From positions 1 through 26,618 of IMG/VR virus record IMGVR_UViG_2695420596_000006: a DNA stretch of 26,618 bases, one strand, 5' to 3'. Under the pieces are notes generated by a model. The model was not told the origin of the DNA. It made no database searches and was given only the letters and a program-made list of their open reading frames with translations. Shown in pieces: positions 698-18,640 of this stretch. Position numbers and translations under genes: made by a program. Position 1 is the stretch's first letter. Each line of letters opens with the position of its first letter. Source of the DNA: a virus. Its lineage: Duplodnaviria > Heunggongvirae > Uroviricota > Caudoviricetes.

Positions 698-1060
698 GGG
701 GCTGATTCTGGATTCGACGGGATTTGCGAAACCCAAGGTGCATGCCGAGGGGCGGTTGGCCTCGTAAAAAGCCGCAAAAAATAGTCGCAAACGACGAAAA
801 CTACGCTTTAGCAGCTTAATAACCTGCTTAGAGCCCTCTCTCCCTAGCCTCCGCTCTTAGGACGGGGATCAAGAGAGGTCAAACCCAAAAGAGATCGCGT
901 GGAAGCCCTGCCTGGGGTTGAAGCGTTAAAACTTAATCAGGCTAGTTTGTTAGTGGCGTGTCCGTCCGCAGCTGGCAAGCGAATGTAAAGACTGACTAAG
1001 CATGTAGTACCGAGGATGTAGGAATTTCGGACGCGGGTTCAACTCCCGCCAGCTCCACCA
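698..1060 (+). ncRNA. ssrA: tmRNA (transfer-messenger RNA, SsrA), 363 nt
   Basis: Begins GGGGCTGATTCTGGATTCGACGGG, contains the tag reading frame GCAAACGACGAAAACTACGCTTTAGCAGCTTAA (ANDENYALAA stop), ends with tRNA-like GGGTTCAACTCCCGCCAGCTCCACCA; matches the E. coli ssrA sequence as recalled. Confidence 0.96.
1016..1060 (+). repeat. 45-bp ssrA 3'-end core (att site copy 1, part of intact tmRNA gene)
   Basis: ATGTAGGAATTTCGGACGCGGGTTCAACTCCCGCCAGCTCCACCA is repeated exactly at 12530..12574. Confidence 0.9.
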
Positions 1061-1070
1061 AATAAATCAA

Positions 1071-1979: not shown

Positions 1980-2348
1980 TTATTCCATTTCAAGATCATC
2001 AATCTTCACTTCGAGTTCAATACTGGTTGTAAAACCGTTATCCGGGCTGACGGTATGTGTCAGAGTCGTAATGGTCCATTCCGCATCATCTATCGGCTGT
2101 TTAAAACCACTGACCTTCACAGGCATTTCCGTGTAGAGATCTGCCCGCCCTTCTGCCAGTTGTAGCGAAAATGACGCAACGCCGCGTTGCAGGCGTTCCC
2201 ACTGCATTTTCGCCGCTCGTTCGGCGTTGCTCCGGTTGGCATAAGTGCGATTAAGTACCAGCACGTTTTCATCCGTACCCACCAGGTAATCGCCCTGCTT
2301 CGCTTCTGGCTCTTTCTTCTGCTTCTTAGTTCTGCGCTTACGCTTCAC
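1980..2348 (-). pseudogene. Truncated tail protein D (late control gene D) C-terminal fragment
   Basis: 122-aa ORF resembling only the C-terminal part of P2-family gpD (which is much longer); the N-terminal part is absent and the ORF abuts a portal fragment on the opposite strand. Confidence 0.55.
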
Positions 2349-2395
2349 CGTGGTGCTTTCTTTCTTCGCAGGTTCGCGGGTATCTTTCTGCCATT

Positions 2396-2881: not shown

Positions 2882-2925
2882 ATGTACTGTTTGTTCAAAT
2901 TGAACACACAGTACTTTTTAATATA

Positions 2926-3765: not shown

Positions 3766-3775
3766 AAATGACTAT

Positions 3776-4417: not shown

Positions 4418-4434
4418 ATTACACCTCCCCGGTG

Positions 4435-5241: not shown

Positions 5242-5350
5242 GTCGCCCTCCTAATTTTAAAATCCATCAATAACGTTCTTTTCAATATAGTTTACATCTT
5301 GGTTGACACATTAACCATAACAAAGTTCCATCAAAACATCTTTTGATAAC
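5242..5350 (-). promoter_or_regulatory. Putative promoter/operator region of the three-gene cargo operon
   Basis: AT-rich; on the minus strand TTAATG-N19-TATATT precedes the RBS; 7-bp inverted repeat ATCAAAA-CATC-TTTTGAT at 5330..5347 may be an operator. Confidence 0.35.
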
Positions 5351-5440
5351 TTTATATTTAAACTACCGGGCGCGCGCTCGTATCCCCGCCACGCCTGCCC
5401 GCTTTATGTAGTGGTTTTCATGCACCTGCATGATCTACGC

Positions 5441-5466
5441 AAAAGCCCGCCAGTTCTGGCGGGCCT
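5441..5466 (-). terminator. Rho-independent terminator (minus strand) downstream of dinI-like gene
   Basis: GCCCGCC-AGTTCT-GGCGGGC hairpin; on the minus strand it is followed by TTTTG. Confidence 0.65.
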
Positions 5467-5599
5467 TAGCAAAAACGATCCTCAAACGATCATGCGATCT
5501 CATGCGGCATAGACATGCACTACAGAGCTAACGCCTCGCAAGGGCTCGTTGTTCAACCTTGCTGACGCCAGAAGCAAGTTCAGACGCCAGCAACGTTTC

Positions 5600-5833
5600 T
5601 TAATGCAGCCAGCTGTCGTCTTCCCACACCTTCTGCATAATTTTCATCACTTGTTTTCTTTCTTCGTCCTGTTGCAGCCCAGTCAGTTCCACACCGTTAG
5701 AGCTACCTTTGCGGATACGAATTACCGTTTTTGGATACAGTGGGCGCAGATTGCGGTAAAGCTCGGATTCAAGGGCGTCCAGGGTAGACTGGCTAATCTT
5801 CTGCTCTTTATCGATCATTATTTCAATGCGCAT
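5600..5833 (-). CDS. dinI: DinI-family protein
   Basis: 77-aa product from internal Met with GAGGTG RBS: MRIEIMIDKEQKISQSTLDALESELYRNLRPLYPKTVIRIRKGSSNGVELTGLQQDEERKQVMKIMQKVWEDDSWL, matching the DinI pattern (MRIEV...AL..EL..R....P...V.V........V.G...E.K..I..IL.E.WE..D.W). Confidence 0.85.
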   Translation of the reverse strand: MRIEIMIDKEQKISQSTLDALESELYRNLRPLYPKTVIRIRKGSSNGVELTGLQQDEERKQVMKIMQKVWEDDSWLH

Positions 5834-5843
5834 AAAAGTCACC

Positions 5844-6032
5844 TCAGCTGATGACATCCATTGAGCGGTTGTATTCGTGGCTTCTGATTTTTGCCATGAG
5901 TTCATCAGTCAATTCAGAAACCCACTGCAGAGCCAGCCCCTTCTCTTCATCACTACACTCACTAGCCGCTACAAGCTTAAGAAAAAAATCAATGCGCTGG
6001 AGCTTCAAAGACTCCAAAAAATAGTCCTGCAT
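5844..6032 (-). CDS. Hypothetical small phage protein (start uncertain; ORF extends to 6134)
   Basis: Internal ATG at 6032 preceded by AGGAGG; no recognisable motif. Confidence 0.4.
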   Translation of the reverse strand: MQDYFLESLKLQRIDFFLKLVAASECSDEEKGLALQWVSELTDELMAKIRSHEYNRSMDVIS

Positions 6033-6185
6033 CTTTCCTCCTATGACACCACAAGCAACACTGTATGCATAACCACTGTTTATATTTACAGCATATAATA
6101 ATCTTACTGATGTAAAACGTTTTTTTACGTTCATCAGCCTGATATGCCTGGTATTATTAAGAGCACGAATTGTTAACCCGCGTAA

Positions 6186-7232
6186 TTAATACAGGTTTCG
6201 CCACTTATCATCTTCCTGCAAACGCTGGTTCCGATAGAAGATACGCAGGCCTGCTCCTGACGGAATACTGCCGCCGCGAAGGAGTAAATCGACCTCTTTC
6301 TCGCTGCCATCAAATCCTCTGGACTTCAGTTCGTAGACGAGCTGCTGTCGCTGATGGTCTGTAATTCGCTGTTTGTAGTCTTTACGCCGTTTCGGTTTCA
6401 CCAGGCGTAACCTTGCAGCCAGTTCCCGGCGCTCTTTTTTGCTCATACTGTGCAGGTAATCGTGCAACTCCTTGTCATCCATGCGGGTAATGTCCGTCCT
6501 GGTATCCCCATCAGCTGATTTGTCTTTCCCTTGTTGGTTCAAATTTTCAGCAAGGGGACAGTTATTGCCACGAGTCCAAGGGGCGCAAGCGCCCTGGTCG
6601 GCTGACCGATGTTCAAGAACGGATGCCAGGTGATACTGGTCATCTTCAGTGAAACCATCAGTGTGATAGCCGGAAAACGTACCGTCATACGGCGGATCGC
6701 AATACACCACATCTCCCGCCTTCAACATCGCCAGCGTTTCATCAAAGCTGGCGCAGATAAACGTTGCTCGCTGGGCTTTTTCTGCAAATGTGCGAAGTTC
6801 TTTTTCAGGGAAATACGGATTTTTATAATTACCGTAGGGAATGTTGAAATGCCCGCTCTTGTTATAGCGACATAAACCACGGTAACCGTGACGATTGAGA
6901 TACAGGAAATATACCGCTTTCATGAAATCAGTAATTTCAGTGGAGTAATTAAACTCCTGCCTTATGTTGTAATAAGCCACCTCCCTGTTTGCGATCTCAA
7001 ATAAAACTCTGGCGCGAGATATAAACGATTCACAATCAGCGGCAACCTTTTTATAGAGGTTGATTAAATCAGGATTAATATCCGCAACCAGATAGCTGGG
7101 GTAATCCGTCTCCATCATCACAGCACAAGAACCCGCGAAAGGTTCAACCAGTCGCGGGCCAGCAGGAAGGTGTTTTTTCAGTTCGGACATAATGGCGGTT
7201 TTATTACCCGCCCATTTCAGGATGGTGCTCAT
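6186..7232 (-). CDS. dam: DNA adenine (N6) methyltransferase, Dam family, with C-terminal charged extension
   Basis: Start at [11 protein letters not shown] with AGGAGG RBS; motifs KWAGNK near the N-terminus and DPPY ([10 protein letters not shown]) are the Dam signature; roughly 100 residues of lysine/arginine/glutamate-rich sequence follow the methylase core. Confidence 0.85.
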
Positions 7233-7531
7233 ACAGCACCTCCTGCAATAACATATCCTAAAGCTTCTAATGGGGTTAATGAGCGAATTGATAGCATCAC
7301 CCATTGTTCTGAAACTGCCATGACGTCATTAACCGGAAGCACATGAGAGATAACCGCGGCCCATTCCCTACCCGTAAATACGCCATGCTTCCATTCGCAA
7401 AGAGAAAGAACATCACCAACTTTATAGCCACGATCGTCTTTACGAAGTTCAGCCGTCTTTTGACCTGCAACCACAGCGTTGAAATACTTAGGTGCAATTT
7501 TTAATTGATGGATACGCACAGCCCCTGTCAT
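7229..7531 (-). CDS. Hypothetical phage protein, ASCH/DUF3850-like
   Basis: Start at [42 protein letters not shown] with GGAGGTG RBS; the pattern resembles ASCH-like beta-barrel proteins found in prophages; assignment by eye only. Confidence 0.55.
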
Positions 7532-7755
7532 ACAGCACCTCCGTTGTAATGTTTGCCTTTCAGCTCTGCGATTTCCTGACAGGTAATGCAAAGCTGCACT
7601 CCTGGAATGGCGCGGCGGCGTGCTGGCGGAATTGGCGCTTCACATTCAATGCAAAGCACGCGAGACACGCCCGGTGTTTTGGCACGGGCAGCACGGATAT
7701 GGCGCTGGCGTTCTTCTTCAACGCGCTGCTGTACGAGATCCATTGCATCAGCCAT
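7528..7755 (-). CDS. TraR/DksA-family C4 zinc-finger protein
   Basis: 75-aa ORF with C-x2-C...C-x2-C ([27 protein letters not shown]), typical of phage TraR/DksA-like zinc fingers. Confidence 0.75.
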
Positions 7756-7994
7756 TAGTGGATCTCCTGCGCTTCGTTCTGGATTGCTTCAGCGGTCACA
7801 CGCAGCAGTTCTGCCGCTTCGACGTGGTTTAGCTGGCGGGATGTGATATGACACGCAAGACTATCAAGGCGGGCAGCCATTGCTTCAGCCCTTGCCCGGC
7901 GTTCTTCCAGACGAGCCTCTGTCAGTAAAATATTAAGCCCTGCGTCATCCGGTCCGGTTTTAGTCGTGAGGGTTTCAATATTACGCATAATCAA
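7755..7994 (-). CDS. Hypothetical phage protein (79 aa)
   Basis: ORF in the same-strand early gene string; no motif assigned. Confidence 0.45.
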   Translation of the reverse strand: MIMRNIETLTTKTGPDDAGLNILLTEARLEERRARAEAMAARLDSLACHITSRQLNHVEAAELLRVTAEAIQNEAQEIH

Positions 7995-8055
7995 TTCTCC
8001 TGAATTTAGATAAAGGGATGCCCGGCGGGTTTACGCCATTAATTTCATTAGCTGG

Positions 8056-8397
8056 TTAATTCGGCATGGTTAGCCGTCTGGGAAATAAGCTCACCACTGC
8101 ACGAAAATGATTCATTGCTTTAATCAACTCCCGCTTTTCGTCAGTGGTCAGCTCATTAATGCTGATGCTATGACGTTCAGCTGGAATTTTTGCCATAAAG
8201 AATATGGCAGCCAGTGCCCGTTTATTTTGTTCGCTATTGATATCCCGTGGATCACGCATATCTTTAATAAACCGCTCAAGCTCTGACTCAATATTCAGGC
8301 CAAAAACTTTCGCCCTTAACTCCGCAATGTGATTAAGTCCATTCAGGCGTTCACCGGGGCTTAATGGAACAGTCGCCGCAGCGCCATTAATTGCCAT
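8056..8397 (-). CDS. Hypothetical phage protein (113 aa)
   Basis: ORF in the same-strand early gene string; no motif assigned. Confidence 0.5.
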   Translation of the reverse strand: MAINGAAATVPLSPGERLNGLNHIAELRAKVFGLNIESELERFIKDMRDPRDINSEQNKRALAAIFFMAKIPAERHSISINELTTDEKRELIKAMNHFRAVVSLFPRRLTMPN

Positions 8398-8419
8398 AAT
8401 TCATATCCCCAAAACGCAA

Positions 8420-8644
8420 CTATCGTTCTTTGTTCTTACGGTAACGTTCAAGAGGAGATACATTTTTTCGTATCGTCTCTTTAACCTGCTCTCCCCGTAA
8501 AAACGTCCCATCCTTTAGCGTGAAAAAGTAACTGCCATCGCCCGACAACGACGGATAACAACAGAGCAAATCATCTTCAGGTACTGAATAACTCTCCCCT
8601 CTGTAACGAAACTGATAAACCACTTCACTTTCCGCTGCATACAT
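8420..8644 (-). CDS. Hypothetical phage protein (74 aa)
   Basis: ORF in the early gene string; overlaps an alternative-frame ORF (8515..8841), so which frame is real is unresolved. Confidence 0.35.
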   Translation of the reverse strand: MYAAESEVVYQFRYRGESYSVPEDDLLCCYPSLSGDGSYFFTLKDGTFLRGEQVKETIRKNVSPLERYRKNKER

Positions 8645-8818
8645 TTTGACTTTCTCCGTTTCCTCGTGGTCAATTCAGACAGCAATTCATCTTGTGAATG
8701 ACATGGATGCCAGCGTTTACCATCCTCACCCATGATCCAGCCGTGACCGTAGTGCATTGCCGGACTTTGTTTTACCAGCAGCGATGCAAATGATGGTTCT
8801 TTCGTCAGCATAAGCACC

Positions 8819-9328
8819 TCACAGCAATCCGAATGAAGCACCGAGACCAGTTACGGTATCAACTGCACTTGCCATCGCAGGATTAGCCTGTAAACGGGCC
8901 TGCAATGAAACAGCAGCCAGCGCCATCAGTCGTGTAACAGAGTTAATGCTGCTGATCGCATCACGACGGCCTGTACTGGTTTTTACATCGCCAGAAACCA
9001 CACCAGCCGCGACACGCCCTATCTCTGCAGTTGCACTCATGACGTAATGCGGTAGTTTCTCTTTTGCCACCTCATTAATCGGAACACATGGCAGACAATG
9101 AATCTGTGCCAGAAAACCATCTACCAGCGTTGAATCTTCAGTCAGATCGGTAAGTAACCAGATATCTCGTGCAGTGAGCTGATGCGGTTGTTCCGGGTTC
9201 AGCTTGTTACGCAGCGTCTGGACGTTCATTCCCGCGAGTTCTGCTAGCTTCGCCATATTGTGACGTAGTGCAAAAGCTCTACAGGCTTCATCAAAATGCG
9301 GTTGTTTGGAAATCTTGTAATCAAACAT
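8819..9328 (-). CDS. cII: CII-type lysogeny-establishment regulator (186 CII-like)
   Basis: 169-aa ORF immediately downstream of the apl-like gene on the lytic strand; size and position match phage 186 CII; HTH-like segment (MAKLAELAGMNVQTLRNKL). Confidence 0.7.
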   Translation of the reverse strand: MFDYKISKQPHFDEACRAFALRHNMAKLAELAGMNVQTLRNKLNPEQPHQLTARDIWLLTDLTEDSTLVDGFLAQIHCLPCVPINEVAKEKLPHYVMSATAEIGRVAAGVVSGDVKTSTGRRDAISSINSVTRLMALAAVSLQARLQANPAMASAVDTVTGLGASFGLL

Positions 9329-9360
9329 GGTGCTCCCTTAGAAAGTTCCCATAATTGAAA

Positions 9361-9603
9361 CTACTTACCAACAATGACGCGGAAGTTGGAATGACCGAGG
9401 GATTCACGGACCTGATCAGTTTTGTACATTAGATAACGCAGGCTTACGCGGCCTTTGTTTTTTTCTTTCTTGACCATGTACTTAGCGAGTTGACCATGGT
9501 GAATTTTTTGGTAAACAGACCCGCGGGAAATCCCTTCCCATTCAGCGAATTCAGCAGGCGTAGCCATCTCTTTTGGTACACGAATTGAAATATCTGTGCT
9601 CAT
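9361..9603 (-). CDS. apl: Apl/Cox-type excisionase and transcriptional regulator
   Basis: 80-aa ORF, first gene of the leftward transcript, divergent from the repressor gene; HTH-like segment (ATPAEFAEWEGISRGSVYQKI); position matches 186 apl / P2 cox. Confidence 0.6.
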   Translation of the reverse strand: MSTDISIRVPKEMATPAEFAEWEGISRGSVYQKIHHGQLAKYMVKKEKNKGRVSLRYLMYKTDQVRESLGHSNFRVIVGK

Positions 9604-9705
9604 AGTGCAGTATCTCTTGGTTTAAGCTCGTTTTATGATGTTTAACCCCAACTTCTAAACTCTCATATTAGAAGTTAAATACAAAAATACGATCTCGTTA
9701 TTGGA
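9604..9705. promoter_or_regulatory. Lysis-lysogeny switch region (divergent/face-to-face promoters and operator)
   Basis: About 100-bp AT-rich intergenic region between divergent apl-like and cI-like genes; perfect 9-bp inverted repeat AACTTCTAA-N9-TTAGAAGTT at 9650..9676. Confidence 0.55.
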
Positions 9706-10356
9706 TTGTCAAATGGAGAGTTCATCTTGAAGATTAATACAGGTGCAAATACGGGAGGGAGAGAGACCATCAAAAGGCTGATGACAGCCTATGGTTTCAA
9801 CACTCAGATAGCGTTGGTTGAACACCTCGAAGCATCAAAAAGCACCATGGCAAACAGGATGTTACGTGATAGCTTCCCTGCTGACTGGGTTATTCAATGT
9901 GCCCTTGAAACAGGTATTTCTCTTCTTTGGCTGACAACGGGCCAAGGGGAAATGTATCCTCAAACAGAAGAAAAAAATAAGTTCAAAAACGAGAGTTCAC
10001 CTACAGTTCGCCCCCTTTCAAAAATAGTTATCCCATCAGTAAGGCAGGCAACCATTGAGAACGGAACTCTCGAAGAGATGGGGGATGTTTTCCTTGATCA
10101 GACTTTGATACCCGGAAAAGCCGAATATTGTTTGTACGTCAAAGCTAACGACGGCAATTACATTGTTGATACATCAACAAAACAGCTTAGTAACGGAATT
10201 TGGCTCATAGACATCGACGGTATGAAAAACATCGTCAAAATTGCGCGCATACCTGGAAACAAAATAGTAGTTAACCAAGATGACACGTCATTTGAATGTT
10301 CTGTAGATGATGTGGAAGTCGTAGGACGTGCAGTCAAAGTAATCAAGAACCTCTAA
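9706..10356 (+). CDS. cI: CI-type immunity repressor (186 CI-like)
   Basis: 216-aa ORF beginning at a TTG (an in-frame ATG at 9781 is an alternative start); N-terminal HTH region and position directly upstream of int on the lysogenic strand, as in 186/P2. Confidence 0.7.
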   Translation: MSNGEFILKINTGANTGGRETIKRLMTAYGFNTQIALVEHLEASKSTMANRMLRDSFPADWVIQCALETGISLLWLTTGQGEMYPQTEEKNKFKNESSPTVRPLSKIVIPSVRQATIENGTLEEMGDVFLDQTLIPGKAEYCLYVKANDGNYIVDTSTKQLSNGIWLIDIDGMKNIVKIARIPGNKIVVNQDDTSFECSVDDVEVVGRAVKVIKNL

Positions 10357-10359
10357 CTT

Positions 10360-11379
10360 ATGACCATCAGAAAACAGCCGAACGGAAAATGGTTGTGTGA
10401 GTGCTATCCCAATGGACGCAATGGTAAGCGCGTGCGTAAGCAATTTGCTACCAAAGGCGAAGCTATTGCATTTGAAAGCTTCACAATGGAAGAAGTGAAC
10501 AAAAAACCATGGCTGGGGGAAAAGGAAGATCGGCGACATTTATCAGAATTAATTGAGCTGTGGTATTCCCTGTATGGTCAAACACTCACAGACCCCAAGC
10601 GCCTCATGGCGAAACTTAGTATTATCTGTAATGGTCTAGGCGATCCCATCGCTTCAGAACTGACAGCCGGTGACTTTACGAAATACCGCGAAGCACGGTT
10701 AAAAGGTGAAGTACGAAATGAAGATGGCACGCTTATGTCGCCCGTTAAGCCCCGCACGGTAAACCTTGAACAGCGCAATCTATCATCTGTTTTTGGTACA
10801 CTGAAAAAGCTGGGCCACTGGTCAGCCCCCAACCCGCTTGCCGGGCTGCCAACATTTAAAATTGCTGAGAGTGAATTGGCGTTCCTGACCCCGGAAGAAA
10901 TTAAACGTCTGCTGGATGCCTGTGCTGATTCTCAAAGCTCTAGTCTGCTGACGGTTGCAAAAATATGTCTGGCCACCGGCGCGAGATGGAGTGAAGCCGA
11001 AAACCTGCAGGGCCATCAATTGTCAAAATACCGGATCACCTACACCAAAACTAAAGGCAAGAAAAACCGAACCGTACCGATATCTCAGGAGCTATATGAA
11101 GAACTCCCCAAAAACAGAGGGAAACTATTCACGCCCTGCAGAAAAGCTTTTGAGCGCGCAGTAAAACGAGCCGGTATAGACCTGCCTGAAGGCCAGTGCA
11201 CACACGTGTTGCGCCATACATTCGCCAGTCACTTCATGATGAATGGCGGAAACATATTGGTACTACGCGATATTCTTGGTCACTCTGATATAAAAATGAC
11301 GATGGTTTATGCTCATTTTTCGCCAGATCATTTAGAAGATGCTGTAACAAAAAATCCACTGGCTATGTTGGGATACTGA
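10360..11379 (+). CDS. int: Tyrosine integrase, P2/186 type
   Basis: 339-aa ORF; C-terminal catalytic region HVLRHTFASHFMMNGGNILVLRDILGHSDIKMTMVYAHF contains the R...H-x-x-R...Y tyrosine-recombinase signature; starts 4 nt after the cI stop. Confidence 0.9.
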   Translation: MTIRKQPNGKWLCECYPNGRNGKRVRKQFATKGEAIAFESFTMEEVNKKPWLGEKEDRRHLSELIELWYSLYGQTLTDPKRLMAKLSIICNGLGDPIASELTAGDFTKYREARLKGEVRNEDGTLMSPVKPRTVNLEQRNLSSVFGTLKKLGHWSAPNPLAGLPTFKIAESELAFLTPEEIKRLLDACADSQSSSLLTVAKICLATGARWSEAENLQGHQLSKYRITYTKTKGKKNRTVPISQELYEELPKNRGKLFTPCRKAFERAVKRAGIDLPEGQCTHVLRHTFASHFMMNGGNILVLRDILGHSDIKMTMVYAHFSPDHLEDAVTKNPLAMLGY

Positions 11380-11381
11380 TA

Positions 11382-12413
11382 ATGGAAAAAAGCATTAGCA
11401 CATTTATGTACCTATCCGTTTTATTAGGTTGTATATTCTTATTTATAAAATATCGACTTTATGTTCTCGATCATAGAAGCTTGTTCCAACAACCCTTGTT
11501 CTGGGCTGCAATAGGCCTACCTTTATTCACCAGCCTTTACTTTGGTTCTTTTGTCTGGATAGATAAAATACACTCTTTTAGTCTTACAAGTCACGGTTAT
11601 GAGAGATTTTTAGATATCTCGAAATTACCATTACTCATCCTTGCATCTGCAGTACCTTTAGTTTCAATAGTAAACAACCTACACAGAACCAAACAAACAG
11701 AAAAACAGATCTCAGAGGCAGAAAGGAAAAACAGGGTAGATTTATATTACAACCACATGAAATTTCATCTTGATTTATATAAAAAAATCGAAGGAAAAAG
11801 AATAGGCAGCTACTACCCGGTTCAGGAAGCTCAAGCTGAAGCAATCTACCAACATTTTATAAAACATCCACAAGAACTATATAGAAAAGCATACCCACAA
11901 TCTACGCCTGATGATTCTCAACAATTAGATATTAATGAGCAATTTGTTATTGATTTACACAAATGTTGGGTAGAAATCAACGCAAGACTCAAGCAATTAT
12001 CCGAGAGTGAAAATCAAATACATCCTACAGAGGAACTTTGCACAACAAAGATGAGAATATTTGTAGGCGTTATGATTATTTATGAAAAAACTTGTAAACT
12101 GTTGTGTTTAGGTGGATTTCATTATAAAAAGTCATTTGTAATAAATGATAGTTATAATAAATACCAAGTTTATTCACCATTTTATGATTTTGGCACTCTG
12201 TACGAATCACTGCAATCCTTAGAAGAGATAACCTACGCCTTCTTGGATACTTGCAGAAATGAAGTGGTAAACTTGTACTTCCCTATAGAAGATAAAATTT
12301 TGATATATGGTGAAGGGATTCTAGAGAATTGGTTCAAGTATTCTCAGTTCTTGATCACTATAGCTTATCAACCCGCCAAGATGTCTCGCTTACCCCAGCT
12401 GAGACGCGATTGA
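11382..12413 (+). CDS. Hypothetical membrane-anchored protein (343 aa), moron gene between int and att
   Basis: ATG 2 nt after the int stop (TGA-TA-ATG); three hydrophobic segments in the first ~100 residues then a ~240-residue soluble domain with no motif assigned; visibly more AT-rich than neighbouring phage genes. Confidence 0.65.
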   Translation: MEKSISTFMYLSVLLGCIFLFIKYRLYVLDHRSLFQQPLFWAAIGLPLFTSLYFGSFVWIDKIHSFSLTSHGYERFLDISKLPLLILASAVPLVSIVNNLHRTKQTEKQISEAERKNRVDLYYNHMKFHLDLYKKIEGKRIGSYYPVQEAQAEAIYQHFIKHPQELYRKAYPQSTPDDSQQLDINEQFVIDLHKCWVEINARLKQLSESENQIHPTEELCTTKMRIFVGVMIIYEKTCKLLCLGGFHYKKSFVINDSYNKYQVYSPFYDFGTLYESLQSLEEITYAFLDTCRNEVVNLYFPIEDKILIYGEGILENWFKYSQFLITIAYQPAKMSRLPQLRRD

Positions 12414-12529
12414 TGATGGCGACATTTTGGCGGCAGAGCTTTAAAAACAGATAAAACTGTCAAACACCACATAACACTAACGTATTGTTTTTAAACATAA
12501 ATCATTATTTTTTCTGTAGTAAAAATGGT

Positions 12530-12574
12530 ATGTAGGAATTTCGGACGCGGGTTCAACTCCCGCCAGCTCCACCA
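12530..12574 (+). repeat. 45-bp ssrA 3'-end core (att site copy 2)
   Basis: Exact repeat of 1016..1060; the preceding bases diverge from ssrA. Confidence 0.9.
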
Positions 12575-12608
12575 ATTTTTGATATATTGAAGTTCAGTGA
12601 AGTCTATC

Positions 12609-12643
12609 AAGCCCGCATGGAACCAGCCTTGCGGGCTTTTTTA
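12609..12643 (+). terminator. Rho-independent terminator downstream of the second ssrA-end copy
   Basis: AAGCCCGCA-loop-TGCGGGCTT hairpin followed by TTTTTTACG. Confidence 0.7.
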
Positions 12644-12740
12644 CGTCTATAGTAGTCTACCGAGAATTGCTAGAATCTACTCGTTATGGCACCCTTTTTG
12701 GGACCCAACACAAAGGGTCCAAAACATGAGGGTCCCAAAC

Positions 12741-13970
12741 ATGGCAAAAATCGCTAAGAAGCTCACTGACACTGAAATCAAAAGCACCAAACCTGCCGAG
12801 AAAGAGGTTAACCTTTTTGACGGCGATGGTTTGCTCCTGCGAATCGCCCCCTTAGCGAAGGGAGGAAAGAAAAATTGGTATTTCAGATATGCAGTGCCTG
12901 TGACCAAAAAGCGAACTAAGGTGAGCTTAGGAACCTATCCTCACCTTACACTTGCGAAGGCACGAGCTTTACGTGATGAGTACTTGTCGTTGCTTGCAAA
13001 TGGTATAGACCCACAAGTTCATAACACCCACAAAGCCAATGCCCTTAAGGATGCAACGGAACATACATTTCAAGCAGTAGCCAAGAAGTGGCTTGATGAG
13101 AAAGTCAAAACGTCAGGCATCTCCCAGGATCATGCTAACGACATCTGGCGAAGCCTAGAGAGAAATATCTTTCCAACGTTGGGTGATACCCCCATTAAGG
13201 AGATTCGCCCTAAAATGCTTAAACAGCATTTAGACCCCATAGAAAAACGAGGTGTCCTTGAAACACTTCGCCGCGTCATATCCCGCCTGAATGAAATTTT
13301 CCGCTATGCAGCAACAGAAGAACTCATAGAATTCAATCCGGCTGACAACCTGGGGCAACGGTTCAGCAAGCCAAAAAAACAGAATATGCCAGCATTACCC
13401 CCTTCCGAACTCCCCCGCTTCCTGGTTGCTCTAAACAATGCTTCTATCCGTTTAGAAACAAGGCTACTGATTGAGTGGCAACTTCTCACATGGGTTCGCC
13501 CTGGTGAAGCTGTTCGCACAAGATGGTCAGATATTGATATAGAAACCAGCATGTGGAACATCCCGGCGGAGTTTATGAAAATGAAGAAGCCTCACAAAGT
13601 TCCACTGAGCAAAGAATCTTTGCGAGTCTTGGATTCAATGAAAGCCATCAGCGGGCATAGAGAGTGGGTTTTTCCCAGTATCAAAGCTCCACTCAATCAC
13701 ATGCATGAACAAACAGCTAATGCGGCTATAATCCGTATGGGCTTCGGAGGTGAGCTTGTAGCTCATGGTATGCGATCAATCGCTAGAACGGCGGCTGAGG
13801 AGTGTGGCAAGTTTAGAACTGATGTCTTAGAAGCCGCCCTTGCCCACTCGAAAAAAGATGAAATAATTGCAGCCTACAATCGTGCAGAGTATCTCACAGA
13901 ACGTGTGGTTCTCATGCAATGGTGGAGTGACTATGTTTCGTCTCAAAAATACAAAGTTATTGCCGCATAA
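12741..13970 (+). CDS. int: Tyrosine integrase, P4/CP4-57 type
   Basis: Start at MAKIAKKLTDTEIKSTKP (ORF track begins further upstream at 12597, inside the terminator); N-terminal arm-binding pattern and C-terminal H-x-x-R ... Y region (HGMRSIARTAAEE ... IIAAYNRAEYLTER). Confidence 0.88.
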   Translation: MAKIAKKLTDTEIKSTKPAEKEVNLFDGDGLLLRIAPLAKGGKKNWYFRYAVPVTKKRTKVSLGTYPHLTLAKARALRDEYLSLLANGIDPQVHNTHKANALKDATEHTFQAVAKKWLDEKVKTSGISQDHANDIWRSLERNIFPTLGDTPIKEIRPKMLKQHLDPIEKRGVLETLRRVISRLNEIFRYAATEELIEFNPADNLGQRFSKPKKQNMPALPPSELPRFLVALNNASIRLETRLLIEWQLLTWVRPGEAVRTRWSDIDIETSMWNIPAEFMKMKKPHKVPLSKESLRVLDSMKAISGHREWVFPSIKAPLNHMHEQTANAAIIRMGFGGELVAHGMRSIARTAAEECGKFRTDVLEAALAHSKKDEIIAAYNRAEYLTERVVLMQWWSDYVSSQKYKVIAA

Positions 13971-14252
13971 CTCTTCCATGATGGGTTAACTATCTTGATT
14001 TATTTGAAGAATTAATGATCACACCATTAACCTATGTGGACTAAGCATAGCCATTTACAAATGGGTACCTTGAGGCCAAATAACGAAAGCTGTCGGTCAT
14101 ATCAGCTAAATAATTCACATCTCTTCTCGATTATCATACACCTCGAAGAACTACCAAATTCGCTCTAATCAATGATAAAACAGTTGAATTCGGTTAAAAT
14201 TTGATCAATTTTATCCTCTACATTGTATTGAATCATCCATGAGGTTTTGTGC

Positions 14253-15809
14253 ATGGCTAGCGGAAATGAAAAAAATCATAGAGTTAGGGTCGCACAGTAC
14301 TTGAGGATGTCTACCGACCATCAGCAATATTCTTTACATAATCAGTCTGAATATATCAAAGATTATGCTGAAAAGAACAATATGGAAATCGCTTATACCT
14401 ACGATGATGCAGGTAAGAGCGGAGTCAGTATCGTAGGCAGGCATTCTTTGCAGCAGTTACTTAGCGATGTAGAACAAAAGAAAATAGATATACAGGCTGT
14501 ATTATTTTATGATGTGAGCCGTTTTGGTCGTTTTCAAAATAGTGATGAAGCTGCATATTATTCCTTTCTATTTGAAAGAAATGGTGTAGATCTTATATAT
14601 TGTTCCGAACCTATACCCACTAAAGATTTCCCTTTAGAGTCCTCTGTTATACTGAATATAAAAAGATCAAGTGCTGCATATCACAGCAGGAATCTATCTG
14701 AAAAGGTATTTATAGGGCAAGTAAATTTAATAAAGCTTGGTTATCATCAAGGCGGTATGGCTGGTTATGGGCTGAGACGTCTTTTAGTAGACGAAAATGG
14801 CATAGCTAAAGAAATATTGAATTTCCGCAAAAGAAAGAGTATTCAAACAGATAGGGTAATATTAATTCCGGGACCAAAAAATGAAATAAAAATTGTAAAT
14901 AGAATCTATGATCTCTTTATAGATAGTAACGTCCCAGAATTCATTATTGCTGAGAGATTAAATGAACAGAGCATACCTGCAGAAAATGGAACATCATGGA
15001 CTCGTGCAAAAATACATCAAATTTTGACAAATGAAAAATATATTGGAAACAACATATATAACAAAACCTCATCTAAACTAAAAAGTAAGCTTGTAAAAAA
15101 CCCCAAACATGAATGGATTAGATGTGACAAGGCATATAAACCAATTATTTCAAAGAAAAAATATAATAAAGCTCAAGAAATAATTCAGCTCCGATCCATT
15201 CATTTGACTAATGAAGATCTATTAGAAAAGCTAAAAGAAAAATTAGAATCTAATGGAAAACTATCAGGCTTTATCATTGATGAAGATGATACAGGCCCTT
15301 CATCTTCTGTTTATAGAACCCGATTTGGTGGTCTTTTAAGAGCATATACTTTGATTGGTTATAAGCCAGAACATGATTACAGCTATCTCCAAATAAATGA
15401 AGCACTAAGATCATTTTACTCAGAGATAATTGAGGATTTTAAGGGCGAAATATTAAAAAGTAACTGTCATATAGACGAGTATAAATATTACCCAATGCTT
15501 TACATCAATGATGAGTTTTTAATTTCCGTCCTTGTTACTAAATGCATACATATGAAATCAGGTAAACTTAGATGGAAAGTCCGGTTTGATAACTCACAGA
15601 AAGCAGACATAACAATTGTTATACGAATGAATTCACAAAATATTTCACCTCTTGATTTTTATATCATACCAAAGATTGAAAACGAATATAGTAAAATGTG
15701 TATGATGGAAACAAACAACATTCGGTTAGATCTCTATAGATTTGATAATCTTGATAAATTTCTACAAATTATTACTCGCATGAAAGTGAGGGAACTATAT
15801 GCTGCCTGA
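14253..15809 (+). CDS. Large serine recombinase (resolvase/invertase catalytic domain plus recombinase domain)
   Basis: Start at ATG with GAGG 8 nt upstream; N-terminal VAQYLRMSTDHQQ...GKSG...VLFYDVSRFGRF is the serine-recombinase catalytic pattern; 518 aa; strongly AT-rich. Confidence 0.8.
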   Translation: MASGNEKNHRVRVAQYLRMSTDHQQYSLHNQSEYIKDYAEKNNMEIAYTYDDAGKSGVSIVGRHSLQQLLSDVEQKKIDIQAVLFYDVSRFGRFQNSDEAAYYSFLFERNGVDLIYCSEPIPTKDFPLESSVILNIKRSSAAYHSRNLSEKVFIGQVNLIKLGYHQGGMAGYGLRRLLVDENGIAKEILNFRKRKSIQTDRVILIPGPKNEIKIVNRIYDLFIDSNVPEFIIAERLNEQSIPAENGTSWTRAKIHQILTNEKYIGNNIYNKTSSKLKSKLVKNPKHEWIRCDKAYKPIISKKKYNKAQEIIQLRSIHLTNEDLLEKLKEKLESNGKLSGFIIDEDDTGPSSSVYRTRFGGLLRAYTLIGYKPEHDYSYLQINEALRSFYSEIIEDFKGEILKSNCHIDEYKYYPMLYINDEFLISVLVTKCIHMKSGKLRWKVRFDNSQKADITIVIRMNSQNISPLDFYIIPKIENEYSKMCMMETNNIRLDLYRFDNLDKFLQIITRMKVRELYAA

Positions 15810-16695
15810 AAAAAATGAATTCCCAATAATTCAAATTGAGATTGCAAAAATAAAATTTCTTAACCCACGAACAAGAAATAAGGTAGTGCATGAAGAAATA
15901 AAGGAAAGCATAAAAAAAAGAGGATTAAGCAAGCCTATAAGCGTAAGAGCTATTGATGAAGACGATTTCAAATATGCTTTAATTTGTGGTCAAGGGAGAA
16001 TAGAGGCTCTTGTTGCATTAGGTGAAACTATTATTCCAGCAATTATAAGAGATGTATCAGAAGAAGATGCTTACGTTATGAGTTTAGTTGAAAACATTGC
16101 AAGGAGAAGACCACGTTCTAATGAGTTATTACAGGTGATTAAAGACATGAAAATCAGAGGACTTTCAGACTCCGAAATAAGTGAGATTACTGGATATTCA
16201 TCGAACTGGGTGAGCAGTATTAATATGCTTCTTGATAAGGGAGAGCATAAACTTCTCTCAGCAGTCGAACGGGGTAATTTGCCTCTGTATCTCGCAGTGC
16301 AATTTGCAAGATGTGAAACTGAGGAAGCACAAGATATTCTTACCGAAGCATATGATAAAAAATTAATAAAAAGTCGGGACATTATAAAGATAAAATACAT
16401 TCTAAATCAAAGAACAGTTGGAAATAAAGGTGCAAAAGCAGCCGGATTTTATTATCACAAACCATCAAAAAGGATGACTGCAGAGGAGTTGATTGAGCTT
16501 TATGAAAATAGTATCGCTGAACATAAATCTGTTTATAACAACTCGAAATTTATAAAAACCAATCTACTAATAATAAATGAGATTTTTAACATCATAATGA
16601 TGAATAAAAGCTTTCAAAATATACTTGAACAAGAGAATCTTTCAGAACTACCATCTCAGATATTAAACCCAGTAAACAAAGAGGTATCAAAATGA
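15799..16695 (+). CDS. ParB/Srx-like N-terminal domain protein (298 aa)
   Basis: Overlaps the recombinase stop by 11 nt; N-terminal IQIEIAKIKFLNPRTRN...SIKKRGLSKPISVRAID...YALICGQGRIEALVALGETIIPAIIRDVSEEDAYVMSLVENIARR matches the ParB N-terminal domain pattern including the G-x-x-R box. Confidence 0.75.
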   Translation: MLPEKNEFPIIQIEIAKIKFLNPRTRNKVVHEEIKESIKKRGLSKPISVRAIDEDDFKYALICGQGRIEALVALGETIIPAIIRDVSEEDAYVMSLVENIARRRPRSNELLQVIKDMKIRGLSDSEISEITGYSSNWVSSINMLLDKGEHKLLSAVERGNLPLYLAVQFARCETEEAQDILTEAYDKKLIKSRDIIKIKYILNQRTVGNKGAKAAGFYYHKPSKRMTAEELIELYENSIAEHKSVYNNSKFIKTNLLIINEIFNIIMMNKSFQNILEQENLSELPSQILNPVNKEVSK

Positions 16696-17588
16696 TTCAG
16701 ATACGTTTTGGCAAAAATTTTATTTACCTGGAAACTAATAAGTTAATTCCATCTAAGGAATTATTAGAAAACGTAAAGCGAAGCCATAAATATCATCAAA
16801 TAGTTACCTCTATCGAAAGCTTGGGTATTATTGAACCAATAATAGTATTCTATGACAAAGATAAAGATGTCACTAAGATACTTGATGGCCATTTAAGGGT
16901 TGAGGCTTTAAAAGACTTAGATATAGAAAAAGCTCCATGTATACTTTCGAGCATAGATGATGCTTTCACTCCTAACAAACAAGTGAATCATATAAATGTA
17001 GTTGAAGAACATAGAATGATAATTAAGTCTCTGGCAAAAGTATCAATTGAAAAACTTAGTGCTGCTTTGGGCATATCTGTTGATGCCATAAAAGATAAAG
17101 CTAATGTGATGAACGGCATAGATCCAAGTGTAATTGCGAAACTTTCTGATAAACCTATACCTAAGGCTACATTTGACGTTTTGAGGAAAATGAAGCCAAT
17201 TCGTCAAATTGAAGCAGTCGGTACAATGATTAATTTTGATAATTATAGTAAAAAATTTGCAATGAGCATCTTGGATGCAACACCGTCATCGATGATAGTA
17301 AATAAAGGGAAAAACACTCCCTATAAAAAGGACATAAAAAAAACCATACTTCGTCTGGAACAAGAAATGGCAACAACTTCGGAAGAAACGAAAAAACTTC
17401 AAACCGAGTATGGTTCAGATATGTTGAAATTCGTTATAATCCAGTCATATATTAATAAATTACTTGGCAACTCTAAAGTTCTTCATTGGTTCTTAGAAAA
17501 CGAGGTTGATTATCTTAATGAGTTAAAAAGAATTTCTAGAATAAATTCTTTGGATGATAAGACTCTTACTGAAAACAGCCAGTCATAG
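16692..17588 (+). CDS. Second ParB/Srx-like domain protein (298 aa)
   Basis: Start overlaps the previous stop (ATGA); N-terminal ...HKYHQIVTSIESLGIIEPIIVFYDKDKDVTKILDGHLRVEALKDL... resembles a ParB-like domain. Confidence 0.65.
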   Translation: MIQIRFGKNFIYLETNKLIPSKELLENVKRSHKYHQIVTSIESLGIIEPIIVFYDKDKDVTKILDGHLRVEALKDLDIEKAPCILSSIDDAFTPNKQVNHINVVEEHRMIIKSLAKVSIEKLSAALGISVDAIKDKANVMNGIDPSVIAKLSDKPIPKATFDVLRKMKPIRQIEAVGTMINFDNYSKKFAMSILDATPSSMIVNKGKNTPYKKDIKKTILRLEQEMATTSEETKKLQTEYGSDMLKFVIIQSYINKLLGNSKVLHWFLENEVDYLNELKRISRINSLDDKTLTENSQS

Positions 17589-18241
17589 TCATGGTTTTAT
17601 ATAGCCTAAATAAACCAAGAAGTATACTTACACAACGACCTTCACGCCGAAGAAGCTGTCAGATACGCCAGCAACCAAAGCATTGCGTTTAAGAGTCAGT
17701 CATTGATACGAAGGGATAACTGCGTATCAGCAGCCGGACATTGAGTCGAATAAAGGCTGGTAGAGAGGGACAGTTCTGTGTCACCGGGAGATTAGTCAGA
17801 AACATCAGCGGCAGAACAGATGAACCAGCAATTGGTAGTGTACAGAAAACTCTCCAGTATATAATTATTCAACTTAACACTAAAAAAAATCACATAGTTA
17901 ATATCATAATTTTTCTTTGGTCTACTTATGCGAGAGATATTGTGGCTTCAACCTGGTATTAGGAGTCGTTTCAGATAAAAGATGTTCTTCGATTCGACTG
18001 GACTTGGTAATAGCAATAAGTAATCGTGAATATTGAAGGACGAAAGGCTACTTCAAAACAAAGTAACCTTTCCAATATTCCCATATATGGGACAAGTGGC
18101 ACATTAACTGCACATAGTGCAGGATACATATGACATAAAACTTTTTATTTATGGCATACATTAAGAATAACTTTTATTTTACGAATGTCAATAGGCTCTT
18201 GCTTAATACTTTTAAAATAATTAATTGATTTTTTATTATAG

Positions 18242-18261
18242 CTTCGCTTGTACAAGCGAAG
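18242..18261. repeat. Perfect 20-bp palindrome CTTCGCTTGTACAAGCGAAG
   Basis: Exact reverse-complement symmetry over 20 bp in a non-coding AT-rich stretch. Confidence 0.8.
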
Positions 18262-18640
18262 ATCCTATTGTTCTTGAATGAATAATGCCAATTATAAAAG
18301 AAGCAAGGGCTAACCCTACGAAGCCGCTGCGCTTGTTTCTTTGGGTTCCCCTTGCTTTTCTTCCCTTCGGTTAGAAAAGAAAATCCAGCCCAGTTTATCA
18401 ACTATCTACAGTATTCCCACTAAAGAGTAACCGCCACTTTATACTCCGTTTGTGAGCTGAGGCTACTGTAGCATTTTTGGGTTTAAATTTTCTATCATTA
18501 CCAGTTGTTGTGTCGGGATAAAAATATTTTCTCGCATCCAACCATAAAGATATCAGATTTGCTATCATCATCACTTCACATAATGAAACTTTTTAAGTAG
18601 GCCTAAAATACAAGGCCTACTTAATAGCCGGAGATAGTTA

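What the first reader, a model, noticed from the sequence alone, without database searches (positions are those of the whole stretch)
11382..12413. Membrane-anchored moron co-transcribed with cI and int at the att-proximal end
Seen in sequence: the ORF starts 2 nt after the int stop, is far more AT-rich than int, and encodes three N-terminal hydrophobic helices plus a ~240-aa soluble domain. Established knowledge: in P2/186 the cI-int transcript is the lysogenic transcript, so a gene appended to it is expressed in lysogens. Inference: candidate superinfection-exclusion or abortive-infection protein, or another lysogenic-conversion function.
Basis: partly seen in the sequence, partly recalled or inferred. 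Interest (0 to 1): 0.55.

Follow-up and report, generated by a model that had tools for sequence, protein, structure and literature searches.

The report
Prophage membrane gene riding the repressor–integrase operon
A real accessory gene, wedged between the integrase and the attachment site of a decayed P2/186-like prophage in E. coli, encodes an uncharacterised inner-membrane protein that is most likely a phage-exclusion factor made by lysogens, though no function has been shown.

Summary
ORF 11382-12413 (343 aa) starts 2 nt after the int stop and has 34% GC against 47% for int. It has three hydrophobic helices and a ~240-aa soluble domain.

It is a one-gene cassette filling the gap between int and the conserved attP arm of a Fels-2/186-like prophage remnant at ssrA. 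Relatives with 91-95% identical integrases carry a 27-42% identical homologue, an unrelated gene, or nothing in that slot.

The protein belongs to a large family (974 clusters at 50% identity) with no Pfam, NCBIfam or PADLOC model and no significant fold match. In most loci examined, members sit in the lysogeny operon, after int, between cI and int, or after a LexA-like repressor.

TM2-TM3 plus a juxtamembrane helix (NNxHRTxQTxKQI...KNxxD) are conserved; the cytoplasmic four-helix-bundle domain is hypervariable. Insertions in the stalk come in whole heptads, which points to a coiled coil.

My best guess is a lysogen-expressed anti-phage membrane protein with a cytoplasmic sensor and a membrane effector. 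This rests on inference only. A HEPN nuclease reading was tested and rejected. The candidate is of moderate interest and easy to test.

The parts
9684..9712 (-). Strong sigma-70-like promoter (TTGACA-17-TATTTT) pointing towards apl/cII. Probably the lytic pR facing the lysogenic operon.
   Evidence: 10 of 12 matches. Assigning it to pR is an inference from the known layout of phage 186.
9706..10356 (+). cI repressor, first gene of the lysogenic operon. RefSeq homologues start at the position equivalent to 9727.
   Evidence: Pfam Phage_CI_repr and Phage_CI_C; RefSeq annotation of the identical locus.
10360..11379 (+). Fels-2/186-type tyrosine integrase. It starts 3 nt after the cI stop.
   Evidence: Pfam Int_N and Phage_integrase; found in 214 of 5426 complete E. 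coli genomes.
11382..12413 (+). The cassette gene: a 343-aa inner-membrane protein of an unannotated family.
11397..11450 (+). TM1 (about residues 6-23), poorly conserved.
   Evidence: Hydropathy, AlphaFold2 helix 2-23, conservation.
11493..11561 (+). TM2 (about residues 38-60), with invariant or near-invariant Q37, F40, P47, G55 and W59.
11625..11681 (+). TM3 (about residues 82-100), SKLPLLILASAVPLxSIVNN. This is the most conserved hydrophobic segment.
11673..11786 (+). Juxtamembrane stalk helix carrying the family signature NNxHRTxQTxKQI...KNxxDxYYxHxK (residues 98-135). In family members, insertions here are whole heptads.
   Evidence: Invariant columns. The spacing between the two motifs is 15, 22, 29 or 36 residues.
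11787..12410 (+). Hypervariable cytoplasmic domain (residues 136-343): a four-helix bundle decorated with beta-hairpins.
12415..12529 (+). Conserved phage backbone, the attP arm. It begins with GATGGCGACA, a putative arm-type Int-binding site that also occurs at 1118-1127 (+, one mismatch) and 1149-1158 (-).
   Evidence: Homology to all related loci resumes at 12415-12417. The motif occurs 5 times against 1.17 expected. That it binds Int is inferred.
12530..12575 (+). attR core, a 46-bp exact repeat of the ssrA 3' end.
1016..1061 (+). attL core, at the 3' end of the intact ssrA gene (698-1060).
12625..12647 (+). Terminator-like hairpin and T-run (the native ssrA terminator). It is the first convincing terminator downstream of the ORF.
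   Evidence: That the operon transcript ends here is inferred.

Best explanation
**What it is (shown).** The ORF is a single-gene accessory cassette of a Fels-2/186-like temperate phage. It sits precisely between the int stop codon and the outermost arm of attP.

**Expression (inferred).** It has no promoter of its own and is translationally coupled to int. It is therefore made from the cI-int lysogenic transcript, at a low constitutive level in lysogens and during establishment of lysogeny.

**The protein (predicted).** It is an inner-membrane protein with its N-terminus in the periplasm, three TM helices and its C-terminus in the cytoplasm.
- The conserved core is TM2, a short periplasmic loop, TM3 and a heptad-phased coiled-coil stalk continuous with TM3. 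I propose that the core oligomerises and acts as the effector.
- The roughly 210-aa hypervariable cytoplasmic four-helix-bundle domain at the end of the stalk would act as the specificity or sensor module.

**Most likely function (inferred, untested).** It protects the lysogen against other phages. The cytoplasmic domain would recognise a phage product, and the stalk would pass the signal to the membrane core. The core would then permeabilise or depolarise the membrane, giving abortive infection or exclusion. In function this would resemble lambda RexA and RexB fused into one polypeptide.
For: **Cassette nature**
- Backbone homology stops at about 11360 and resumes at 12415-12417 in all related loci.
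- Integrases are 91-95% identical where the cargo is only 27-42% identical.
- Cartapus and RE-2010 carry an unrelated 401-aa gene in the slot. Klebsiella ST437 phages carry a 516-aa gene. Fels-2 carries nothing.
- The ORF is present in 21 of the 214 E. coli genomes with this int type, and is at least 99% identical in 20 of them.
- It occurs inside a near-complete 35-kb prophage in strain 2014C-3011.
- GC is 34% against 47% for int.

**Link to the lysogeny operon**
- The start lies between 11 nt of overlap and a 2-nt gap from the int stop in the eight related loci measured.
- No promoter-like site lies between cI and position 12300.
- Other family members sit between cI and int (Serratia) or 1 nt after a LexA-like repressor in a Vibrio Vinavirales element.
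- Repressor and int of a P2-like prophage are transcribed in all conditions (PMC7067206).

**Architecture**
- Hydropathy, a positive-inside count (3 and 7 K/R on the predicted cytoplasmic stretches, 1 and 3 on the periplasmic ones) and five Cys in the C-terminal domain.
- AlphaFold2 pLDDT is 87 for the whole protein and 89.8 for the domain.
- The core is 45% identical across the family; the C-domain is 15%.
- Many members share only the N-terminal module.
- The spacing from the HRT motif to the KN motif is 15 residues plus whole heptads in 185 of the 188 members where both motifs were located.

**Priors**
- The int-att interval is a minor defence hotspot of P2-like phages, and 6 of 8 unknown-gene loci from P4 hotspots protected against phages when tested (PMC13586616).
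- Transmembrane proteins in known systems are regarded as suicide effectors (PMC9122126).
Against: - There is no experimental phenotype.
- There is no similarity to any of the 5027 PADLOC models.
- tblastn against 50,697 phage records found only 5 matching records, none from a characterised exclusion or abortive-infection gene.
- None of the alternative cargos in the same slot matches a known defence protein either, so this particular slot has not been tied to defence by homology.
- Oligomerisation and pore formation are inferred only from heptad phasing and conservation.
- Transcription from the lysogenic promoter was not measured. A weak terminator-like hairpin lies inside the ORF at 11502-11519.
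- The window's subfamily has lost the C-terminal tail that remote homologues read from backbone DNA, so the exact C-terminus seems unimportant.
Confidence: 0.45

Rival explanations
1. Classical superinfection exclusion at the inner membrane. The protein would block DNA entry by related or other phages, as P22 SieA, T4 Imm and HK97 gp15 do, without killing the cell.
For: - It is an inner-membrane protein made from a prophage lysogeny operon.
- TM2, the periplasmic loop and TM3 are conserved (G72, F76 and S80 invariant). They could contact a conserved host or phage entry component.
- P22 SieA is an inner-membrane protein that blocks DNA injection (PMC10883804).
Against: - Periplasmic exposure is only about 25 residues.
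- The variable part, presumably the specificity-determining part, is a roughly 210-aa cytoplasmic domain. An entry blocker would not be expected to need this.
- No sequence similarity to SieA, Imm, Sp or gp15 was found in the phage database.
Confidence: 0.2
2. A lysogenic-conversion function unrelated to phages. The protein could be a membrane sensor or signalling protein, a transporter regulator, or a stress or colonisation factor that benefits the host.
For: - The gene is retained intact in a heavily decayed prophage.
Against: - There is no output or enzymatic domain and no partner gene in the window.
- The extreme divergence of the C-domain next to a nearly constant int is typical of arms-race genes rather than housekeeping-type conversion genes.
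- In most loci examined the family sits on temperate phages or phage-like elements.
Confidence: 0.15
3. A function for the phage's own life cycle. Examples are modulation of integration or excision, control of lysogeny establishment, or a holin-like lysis timer. Class I holins also have three TM helices with the N-terminus out and the C-terminus in.
For: - The gene is translationally coupled to int, and this is conserved across the family.
- Its predicted topology matches that of class I holins (the holin topology is from general knowledge).
Against: - Close relatives with 84-94% identical int lack it altogether or carry an unrelated gene. It is therefore dispensable.
- The prophage already has a holin, an endolysin and LysB/LysC in its lysis cassette.
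- At 343 aa with a folded domain it is unlike holins.
- The gene survives in a remnant that has lost all late genes.
Confidence: 0.1
4. A membrane-anchored HEPN ribonuclease toxin, in which the C-terminal four-helix bundle is the effector.
For: - Homologue P0016 gives a sub-threshold match to PF18735 HEPN_RiboL-PSP (25.1 bits against a 28.4 cut-off) and carries RNAIAH.
Against: - The window protein has no Pfam hit at all.
- It has ENQIH, with no arginine, at the position of the motif.
- Only 8 of 176 family members carry RNxxxH at that position.
- The conserved part of the family is the membrane core, not this domain.
Confidence: 0.05

Closest known systems
Lambda RexA/RexB, an abortive-infection system co-transcribed with cI
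   Same: The gene sits in the repressor operon of a temperate phage and so would be expressed in lysogens. It has a polytopic inner-membrane component plus a cytoplasmic component. The proposed logic is the same: a cytoplasmic sensor triggers a membrane effector.
   Different: This is one polypeptide, not two. The tblastn search of 50,697 phage records returned only five records, none of them lambda. It has three TM helices and a coiled-coil stalk. Neither channel activity nor an anti-phage phenotype has been shown.
The int-att defence hotspot of P2-like phages (PMC13586616), and the P2/P4 hotspots of Rousset et al. 2022 (PMC9122126)
   Same: [quoted passage not shown] Content varies between closely related phages, the GC content is foreign, and the boundaries are sharp.
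   Different: The cargo here and in the compared relatives matches no known defence model. The published hotspot was defined by recognisable systems.
P22 SieA, T4 Imm and HK97 gp15, inner-membrane superinfection-exclusion proteins
   Same: Phage-encoded (in P22 and HK97, prophage-expressed) inner-membrane proteins. Each is a single gene.
   Different: Those proteins are small, with little cytoplasmic mass. This one carries a roughly 240-aa cytoplasmic portion, of which about 210 aa is a hypervariable domain. No sequence similarity was found.
HEPN superfamily (RiboL-PSP-HEPN PF18735, AbiV)
   Same: The C-domain is a four-helix bundle. One subfamily carries RNxxxH and approaches the Pfam threshold.
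Vibrio phage K139 glo and the cI-int hotspot of K139-like phages (mentioned in PMC9122126)
   Same: Accessory genes embedded in the cI/int lysogeny module of P2-related phages. A Serratia family member sits exactly between cI and int.
   Different: Different proteins. Glo is periplasmic (from memory, not tested here). No homology test against Glo was run.

Membership tests
HEPN (RiboL-PSP-HEPN, PF18735) | The Pfam model score reaches the gathering threshold (28.4 bits). | tested here: not met
   The window protein has no hit even at E<=1. The best relative, P0016, scores 25.1 bits.
HEPN (RiboL-PSP-HEPN, PF18735) | A conserved Rx4-6H catalytic motif. | tested here: not met
   The window has E-N-Q-I-H at residues 210-214. 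RNxxxH occurs at that position in only 8 of 176 family members.
HEPN (RiboL-PSP-HEPN, PF18735) | The HEPN four-helix up-down bundle fold. | tested here: inconclusive
P2-like int-att defence hotspot (PMC13586616) | [quoted passage not shown] | tested here: met
   int ends at 11379, the ORF spans 11382-12413, and the attR core is at 12530-12575.
P2-like int-att defence hotspot (PMC13586616) | Variable gene content between otherwise similar phages. | tested here: met
   Four states were seen: this family, a 401-aa gene, a 516-aa gene and an empty slot. Boundaries are sharp.
P2-like int-att defence hotspot (PMC13586616) | The cargo is a recognised defence system. | tested here: not met
   PADLOC gives no hit for the ORF or for the alternative cargos.
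P2-like int-att defence hotspot (PMC13586616) | The cargo confers an anti-phage phenotype. | not testable with these tools
   Plating assays are needed.
Moron in the strict sense (an independent transcription unit added to a phage genome) | A promoter and terminator of its own flank the gene. | tested here: not met
   No promoter-like site lies upstream within int, and the start is 2 nt after the int stop. The first good terminator is the ssrA terminator beyond attR. This was a consensus scan only.
Moron in the strict sense (an independent transcription unit added to a phage genome) | Deviant base composition, and presence or absence among related phages. | tested here: met
   GC is 0.34 against 0.47. 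The gene is absent from Fels-2, Cartapus and RE-2010.
Lambda Rex-type repressor-operon abortive-infection system | Sequence homology to RexA or RexB. | tested here: not met
   tblastn against 50,697 phage records returned only five records, none of them lambda.
Lambda Rex-type repressor-operon abortive-infection system | Co-transcription with the repressor in lysogens. | tested here: inconclusive
   cI, int and the ORF are separated by 3 and 2 nt with no intervening signals. Repressor and int of a P2-like prophage are expressed in all conditions (PMC7067206). No transcript data exist for this locus.
Lambda Rex-type repressor-operon abortive-infection system | A membrane channel that depolarises the cell on infection. 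| not testable with these tools
   Only the three TM helices and the heptad-phased stalk are seen.
Class I holin | Three TM helices with the N-terminus out and the C-terminus in. | tested here: met
   Hydropathy and the positive-inside count. This is a prediction only.
Class I holin | A small protein (about 100 aa) with a short charged tail, encoded in the lysis cassette. | tested here: not met
   The protein is 343 aa with a folded domain. The prophage's holin and lysozyme lie elsewhere.

The most novel reading that the evidence does not exclude
The ORF would be a founding member of a large, completely unannotated family of single-polypeptide immunity proteins embedded in the lysogeny operons of temperate phages.

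- **Size and distribution.** The family has about 1000 clusters at 50% identity. The loci sampled here span several Enterobacterales genera plus Vibrio, Pseudomonas and Psychrobacter.
- **Proposed mechanism.** It would form an oligomeric pore lined by TM3, held shut by a heptad-phased coiled-coil stalk. A hypervariable cytoplasmic sensor domain would open it on recognising an invading phage. That would make it a fused, non-homologous counterpart of RexAB.
- **Spread across virus realms.** The same membrane module appears in tailed phages (Peduoviridae), a Vinavirales element and a Vibrio inovirus.
Probability: 0.3. Interest if true: 0.7.

Novelty: new member of a known kind. Interest (0 to 1): 0.45.

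Why it matters
If the gene is protective, it would add a new one-gene membrane defence family to the known anti-phage systems. It would have an unusually clear modular layout: a constant membrane core, a coiled-coil stalk whose length changes by whole heptads, and a swappable cytoplasmic domain.

It would also show that the int-att and cI-int slots of 186-like phages hold defence genes that current tools (PADLOC, Pfam, NCBIfam) do not recognise.

The gene is small, stands alone and sits in E. coli. A plating assay would settle the question quickly.

If it has no anti-phage role, it is still a widespread prophage membrane protein of unknown purpose that is retained even in decayed prophages.

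Tried and rejected
- **Family scans.** Pfam, NCBIfam and PADLOC scans of the ORF and of 20-45 diverse relatives gave no family. PHROGs gave only an unnamed family.
- **HEPN lead.** This came from a precomputed PF18735 tag on P0016. It was followed up and rejected for this protein: the score is sub-threshold and the motif is absent.
- **Fold searches.**
  - Foldseek against BFVD found nothing at E<=0.001.
  - The afdb50 library was not available.
- **Solved structures.** PDB profile searches found nothing.
- **Domain fusions.** I looked for informative fusions of the N-terminal module to known C-terminal domains. A Pfam scan of 40 members that share little beyond the N-terminal part of the profile gave nothing. 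Two word-indexed searches with the N-module returned only fragments.
- **Genome-collection scan.** It gave only 4 loci.
- **Literature.** Searches for the accession numbers, the PHROG id, and the slot or function found no characterisation.
- **Conserved C-terminal tail.** The conserved tail GDxLAAE of remote homologues first looked like a functional peptide. It is better explained as read-through into conserved attP-arm DNA.
- **Link to the neighbouring island.** A link to the adjacent P4-type integrase island was considered and dropped. The two elements are simply integrated in tandem at ssrA.

Full report
**1. The observation**

The ORF at 11382-12413 on the + strand (343 aa, ATG start) is real and matches the description. 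The integrase ORF ends with TGA at 11377-11379. Two bases follow, then the ATG.

GC is 0.342 for the ORF, 0.470 for int and 0.421 for cI. The sliding profile drops at the junction and recovers after about 12400.

A 19-residue Kyte-Doolittle scan gives three hydrophobic peaks near residues 13-20, 50 and 88. An AlphaFold2 model (mean pLDDT 87) gives helices 2-23, 38-61 and a single long helix 70-135. A folded domain of helices and beta-hairpins follows.

The exact protein is on at least 1000 public contigs, always named hypothetical. It matches the unnamed phrog_17460 end to end (E 5e-203).

**2. Where it sits**

The window holds the E. coli ssrA gene (tmRNA 698-1060). A 46-bp stretch of its 3' end is repeated exactly at 12530-12575. 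The DNA between the two copies is a Fels-2/186-like prophage, and it has decayed:
- only a portal fragment remains (2474-2881);
- a methylase/replication-protein fusion lies at 6186-7304;
- no late genes are left.

The early and lysogeny region is intact: cII 8819-9328, apl 9361-9603, cI 9706-10356 and int 10360-11379.

In strain 2014C-3011 the same cI-int-ORF block closes a near-complete 35-kb prophage between ssrA and attR. The gene therefore belongs to a phage genome.

A second island follows directly after attR. It starts with a P4-type integrase at 12597-13970.

**3. It is a cassette**

- **Sharp boundaries.** BLAST of 11200-12700 against related loci shows backbone similarity ending at about 11357-11365, near the end of int. 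It resumes at 12415-12417 in every locus.
- **Right-hand boundary.** The resumed backbone begins with GATGGCGACA. This decamer also occurs twice just right of attL, with up to one mismatch (5 hits in the window against 1.17 expected). I read these as arm-type Int sites. That is an inference.
- **What relatives carry in the slot.** Cartapus and RE-2010 carry an unrelated 401-aa gene. Klebsiella ST437-type phages carry a 516-aa gene. In Fels-2 int runs to the end of the record, which adjoins the annotated attP, so its slot appears empty. Enterobacter prophages carry a homologue of the ORF plus a homologue of the 401-aa gene (48% identity).
- **Divergence next to a constant int.** Where a homologue is present, int is 91-95% identical to the window's int but the cargo is only 27-42% identical.
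- **Frequency in E. coli.** Of 5426 complete genomes, 214 have this int type. Twenty-one have a full-length match to the ORF, 20 of them at 99% identity or more and one at 77%. Six others match only the conserved core.

Remote homologues end in GDxLAAE(R/Q/H). The window encodes DDGDILAAEL in another frame just past its stop codon, inside the conserved backbone. The shared tail is therefore read-through into attP-arm DNA, and the window's subfamily stops short of it.

**4. Expression**

cI, int and the ORF are separated by 3 and 2 nt. The consensus scan finds the strong leftward promoter at 9712-9684 but no promoter-like site between cI and 12300. The first convincing terminator after the ORF is the ssrA terminator at 12625.

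In the eight related loci where both genes could be placed, the start of the homologue lies between 11 nt of overlap and 1 nt after the int stop.

More distant members keep the association with the lysogeny module:
- A Serratia member lies between cI and int.
- A Vibrio Vinavirales-type element has a member 1 nt after its LexA-like repressor. That protein carries the family motif NHRSEQTKKQI...QN...YYKH.
- A Vibrio inovirus carries the membrane module.

Some members lie elsewhere. A Pseudomonas member sits next to umuDC-like genes. Another member lies in a genomic island next to a UvrD-like fragment. A Morganella member sits at smpB/ssrA beside a reverse transcriptase.

In the P2-like prophage BTP5, repressor and integrase are transcribed at a low level in all conditions (PMC7067206).

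Co-transcription with cI-int is thus well supported by anatomy and analogy, but it was not measured. By the strict definition (own promoter and terminator) the gene is not a moron.

**5. The protein family**

- **Size.** A word-indexed search gave 48 relatives, all unnamed. The exhaustive profile search gave 974 clusters at 50% identity with E<=0.001, and 183 with E<=1e-30.
- **No annotation.** No member tested matches a Pfam, NCBIfam or PADLOC family.
- **Uneven conservation.** Residues 29-135 average 45% identity to the query across 44 diverse members. Residues 136-343 average 15%. Many members match the profile only over the N-terminal third to two-thirds.
- **Conserved positions.** Across the 20- and 45-member alignments, the invariant or near-invariant positions are L34, Q37, F40, P47, G55, W59, G72, F76, S80, P83, L87, N99, H101, R102, T103, Q105, T106, Q109, I110, K116, N117, D120, H125 and K127. 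These cover TM2, the short loop, TM3 and the helix that leaves the membrane.
- **Topology.** Lys/Arg counts are 1 for the N-terminus, 3 for loop 1, 3 for loop 2 (net charge zero) and 7 for the 30 residues after TM3. The C-domain has five cysteines. Longer homologues add a fourth N-terminal TM helix preceded by a basic N-terminus. All of this fits N-terminus out and C-terminus in for the three-TM form.
- **Heptad-quantised stalk.** The distance from the HRTxQT motif to the KNxxD motif is 15 residues in 168 members, 22 in 10, 29 in 6 and 36 in 1. The inserted units look like xTQxQIx. Insertions restricted to whole heptads indicate a coiled-coil stalk whose register must be kept. This in turn suggests oligomerisation through a helix continuous with TM3.

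**6. The C-terminal domain**

A model of the domain alone is confident (pLDDT 89.8, pTM 0.86). It is a four-helix bundle with hairpins.

The HEPN lead came from a sub-threshold PF18735 match in homologue P0016, which carries RNAIAH. Only 8 of 176 members have RNxxxH at that position, and the window protein has ENQIH. I therefore do not file it as HEPN.

**7. Mechanism**

*Shown:*
- cassette structure;
- membership of a large unannotated family;
- conserved membrane core and variable tail;
- heptad-phased stalk;
- position in the lysogeny operon.

*Inferred:*
- expression in lysogens;
- oligomerisation;
- the cytoplasmic domain acting as a specificity module and the membrane core as effector;
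- an anti-phage role.

The pattern of a constant effector-like core, a hypervariable domain and rapid turnover beside a stable integrase is what arms-race genes in prophage hotspots look like. The int-att interval is a reported minor defence hotspot of P2-like phages, and unknown-gene loci sampled from P4 hotspots were protective in 6 of 8 tests (PMC13586616).

I put the anti-phage reading, by abortive infection or exclusion through the membrane, at about 0.45. The other readings are:
- pure block of DNA entry, 0.2;
- a lysogenic-conversion function unrelated to phages, 0.15;
- a role in the phage's own life cycle, 0.1;
- HEPN toxin, 0.05.

**8. Comparison and novelty**

The nearest functional analogue is lambda RexAB, which sits in the repressor operon and pairs a membrane component with a cytoplasmic one. 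No homology to it or to any other phage exclusion protein appeared in a tblastn search of 50,697 phage records.

The genomic niche is known. The protein family is not described in any library or paper I could search.

I rate it a new member of a known kind: accessory cargo in a prophage hotspot. It has a fair chance of being a new single-gene defence family. Interest is moderate at 0.45, because the candidate is clean, widespread and easy to test, but has no phenotype.

Noticed in passing
window 12597-26618: A second mobile island is integrated in tandem at the same ssrA site. It carries:
- a P4-type integrase (12597-13970);
- a large serine recombinase (14247-15809);
- two ParB/RepB-like genes (15799-17588);
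- on the minus strand, a NACHT-domain protein (19546-21660) followed by a RelA/SpoT-domain protein (18641-19546), which looks like a candidate NLR-type defence pair;
- an ankyrin-repeat protein and a relaxase.

PADLOC gave only a weak PDC-S33 hit for the RelA/SpoT gene.
   Followed up: partly
window 2926-5241 (- strand): Three consecutive ORFs of 279, 222 and 268 aa lie between the portal fragment and the dinI-like gene. This corresponds to the classic gpA-gpQ defence hotspot of P2-like phages. None matches a PADLOC or PHROG family, apart from an HTH signal in the middle one. In strain 2014C-3011 this hotspot instead holds a P-loop NTPase.
   Followed up: partly
window 1062-9700: The prophage is a remnant:
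- only the C-terminal third of the portal gene is left (2474-2881);
- ORF 6186-7304 fuses an N-terminal Dam methylase part to the C-terminal part of the replication protein A;
- all tail, head and lysis genes are missing.

The cI-int-ORF block and the apl/cII genes remain intact.
   Followed up: partly
window 12398-12574: Rfam's tmRNA model scores 52 bits here (gathering score 47), as a shortened tmRNA. RefSeq annotates the equivalent stretch as a partial ssrA that overlaps the last 16 nt of the ORF. Only the last 46 bp are identical to the host ssrA. The 5' part of the match is phage attP-arm DNA, and its resemblance may be chance or an old capture.
   Followed up: partly
window 12414-12446: Just past the ORF's stop codon, a different frame encodes DDGDILAAEL. 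This matches the conserved C-terminal tail GDxLAAE(R/Q/H) of remote homologues. The tail is encoded by conserved attP-arm backbone, and the window's subfamily terminates before it.
   Followed up: yes
window 1118-1127 (+), 1149-1158 (-), 12415-12424 (+): The decamer (A/G)ATGGCGACA occurs on both sides of the prophage ends (5 hits in the window against 1.17 expected). These are probably arm-type integrase binding sites. The one at 12415 marks the right edge of the cassette.
   Followed up: partly
L005 7191-8381; L002 2641-3846; L004 2641-3846: A second cargo family of about 400 aa occupies the same int-att slot. The Cartapus annotators called it a 'putative RES protein', but it has no Pfam or PADLOC hit here. 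It occurs alone in Cartapus and RE-2010, and together with a homologue of the ORF in Enterobacter prophages (48% identity between the copies).
   Followed up: partly
L019 4010-5077 (Vibrio Vinavirales-type element PQ189313); L021 3447-4286 (Vibrio inovirus VALG_phi6): Members of the same membrane-protein family occur in two temperate elements from other virus realms. In the first, the gene starts 1 nt after a LexA-like repressor gene and keeps the HR(S/T)xQTxKQI motif. In the inovirus only the TM2-TM3 module is recognisable.
   Followed up: partly
family-wide (proteins P0061, P0063, P0078, P0113, P0117, P0118 and others): Insertions between the HRTxQT and KNxxD motifs are exactly 7, 14 or 21 residues, built of xTQxQIx-like units. 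The stalk length is therefore quantised in heptads.
   Followed up: yes
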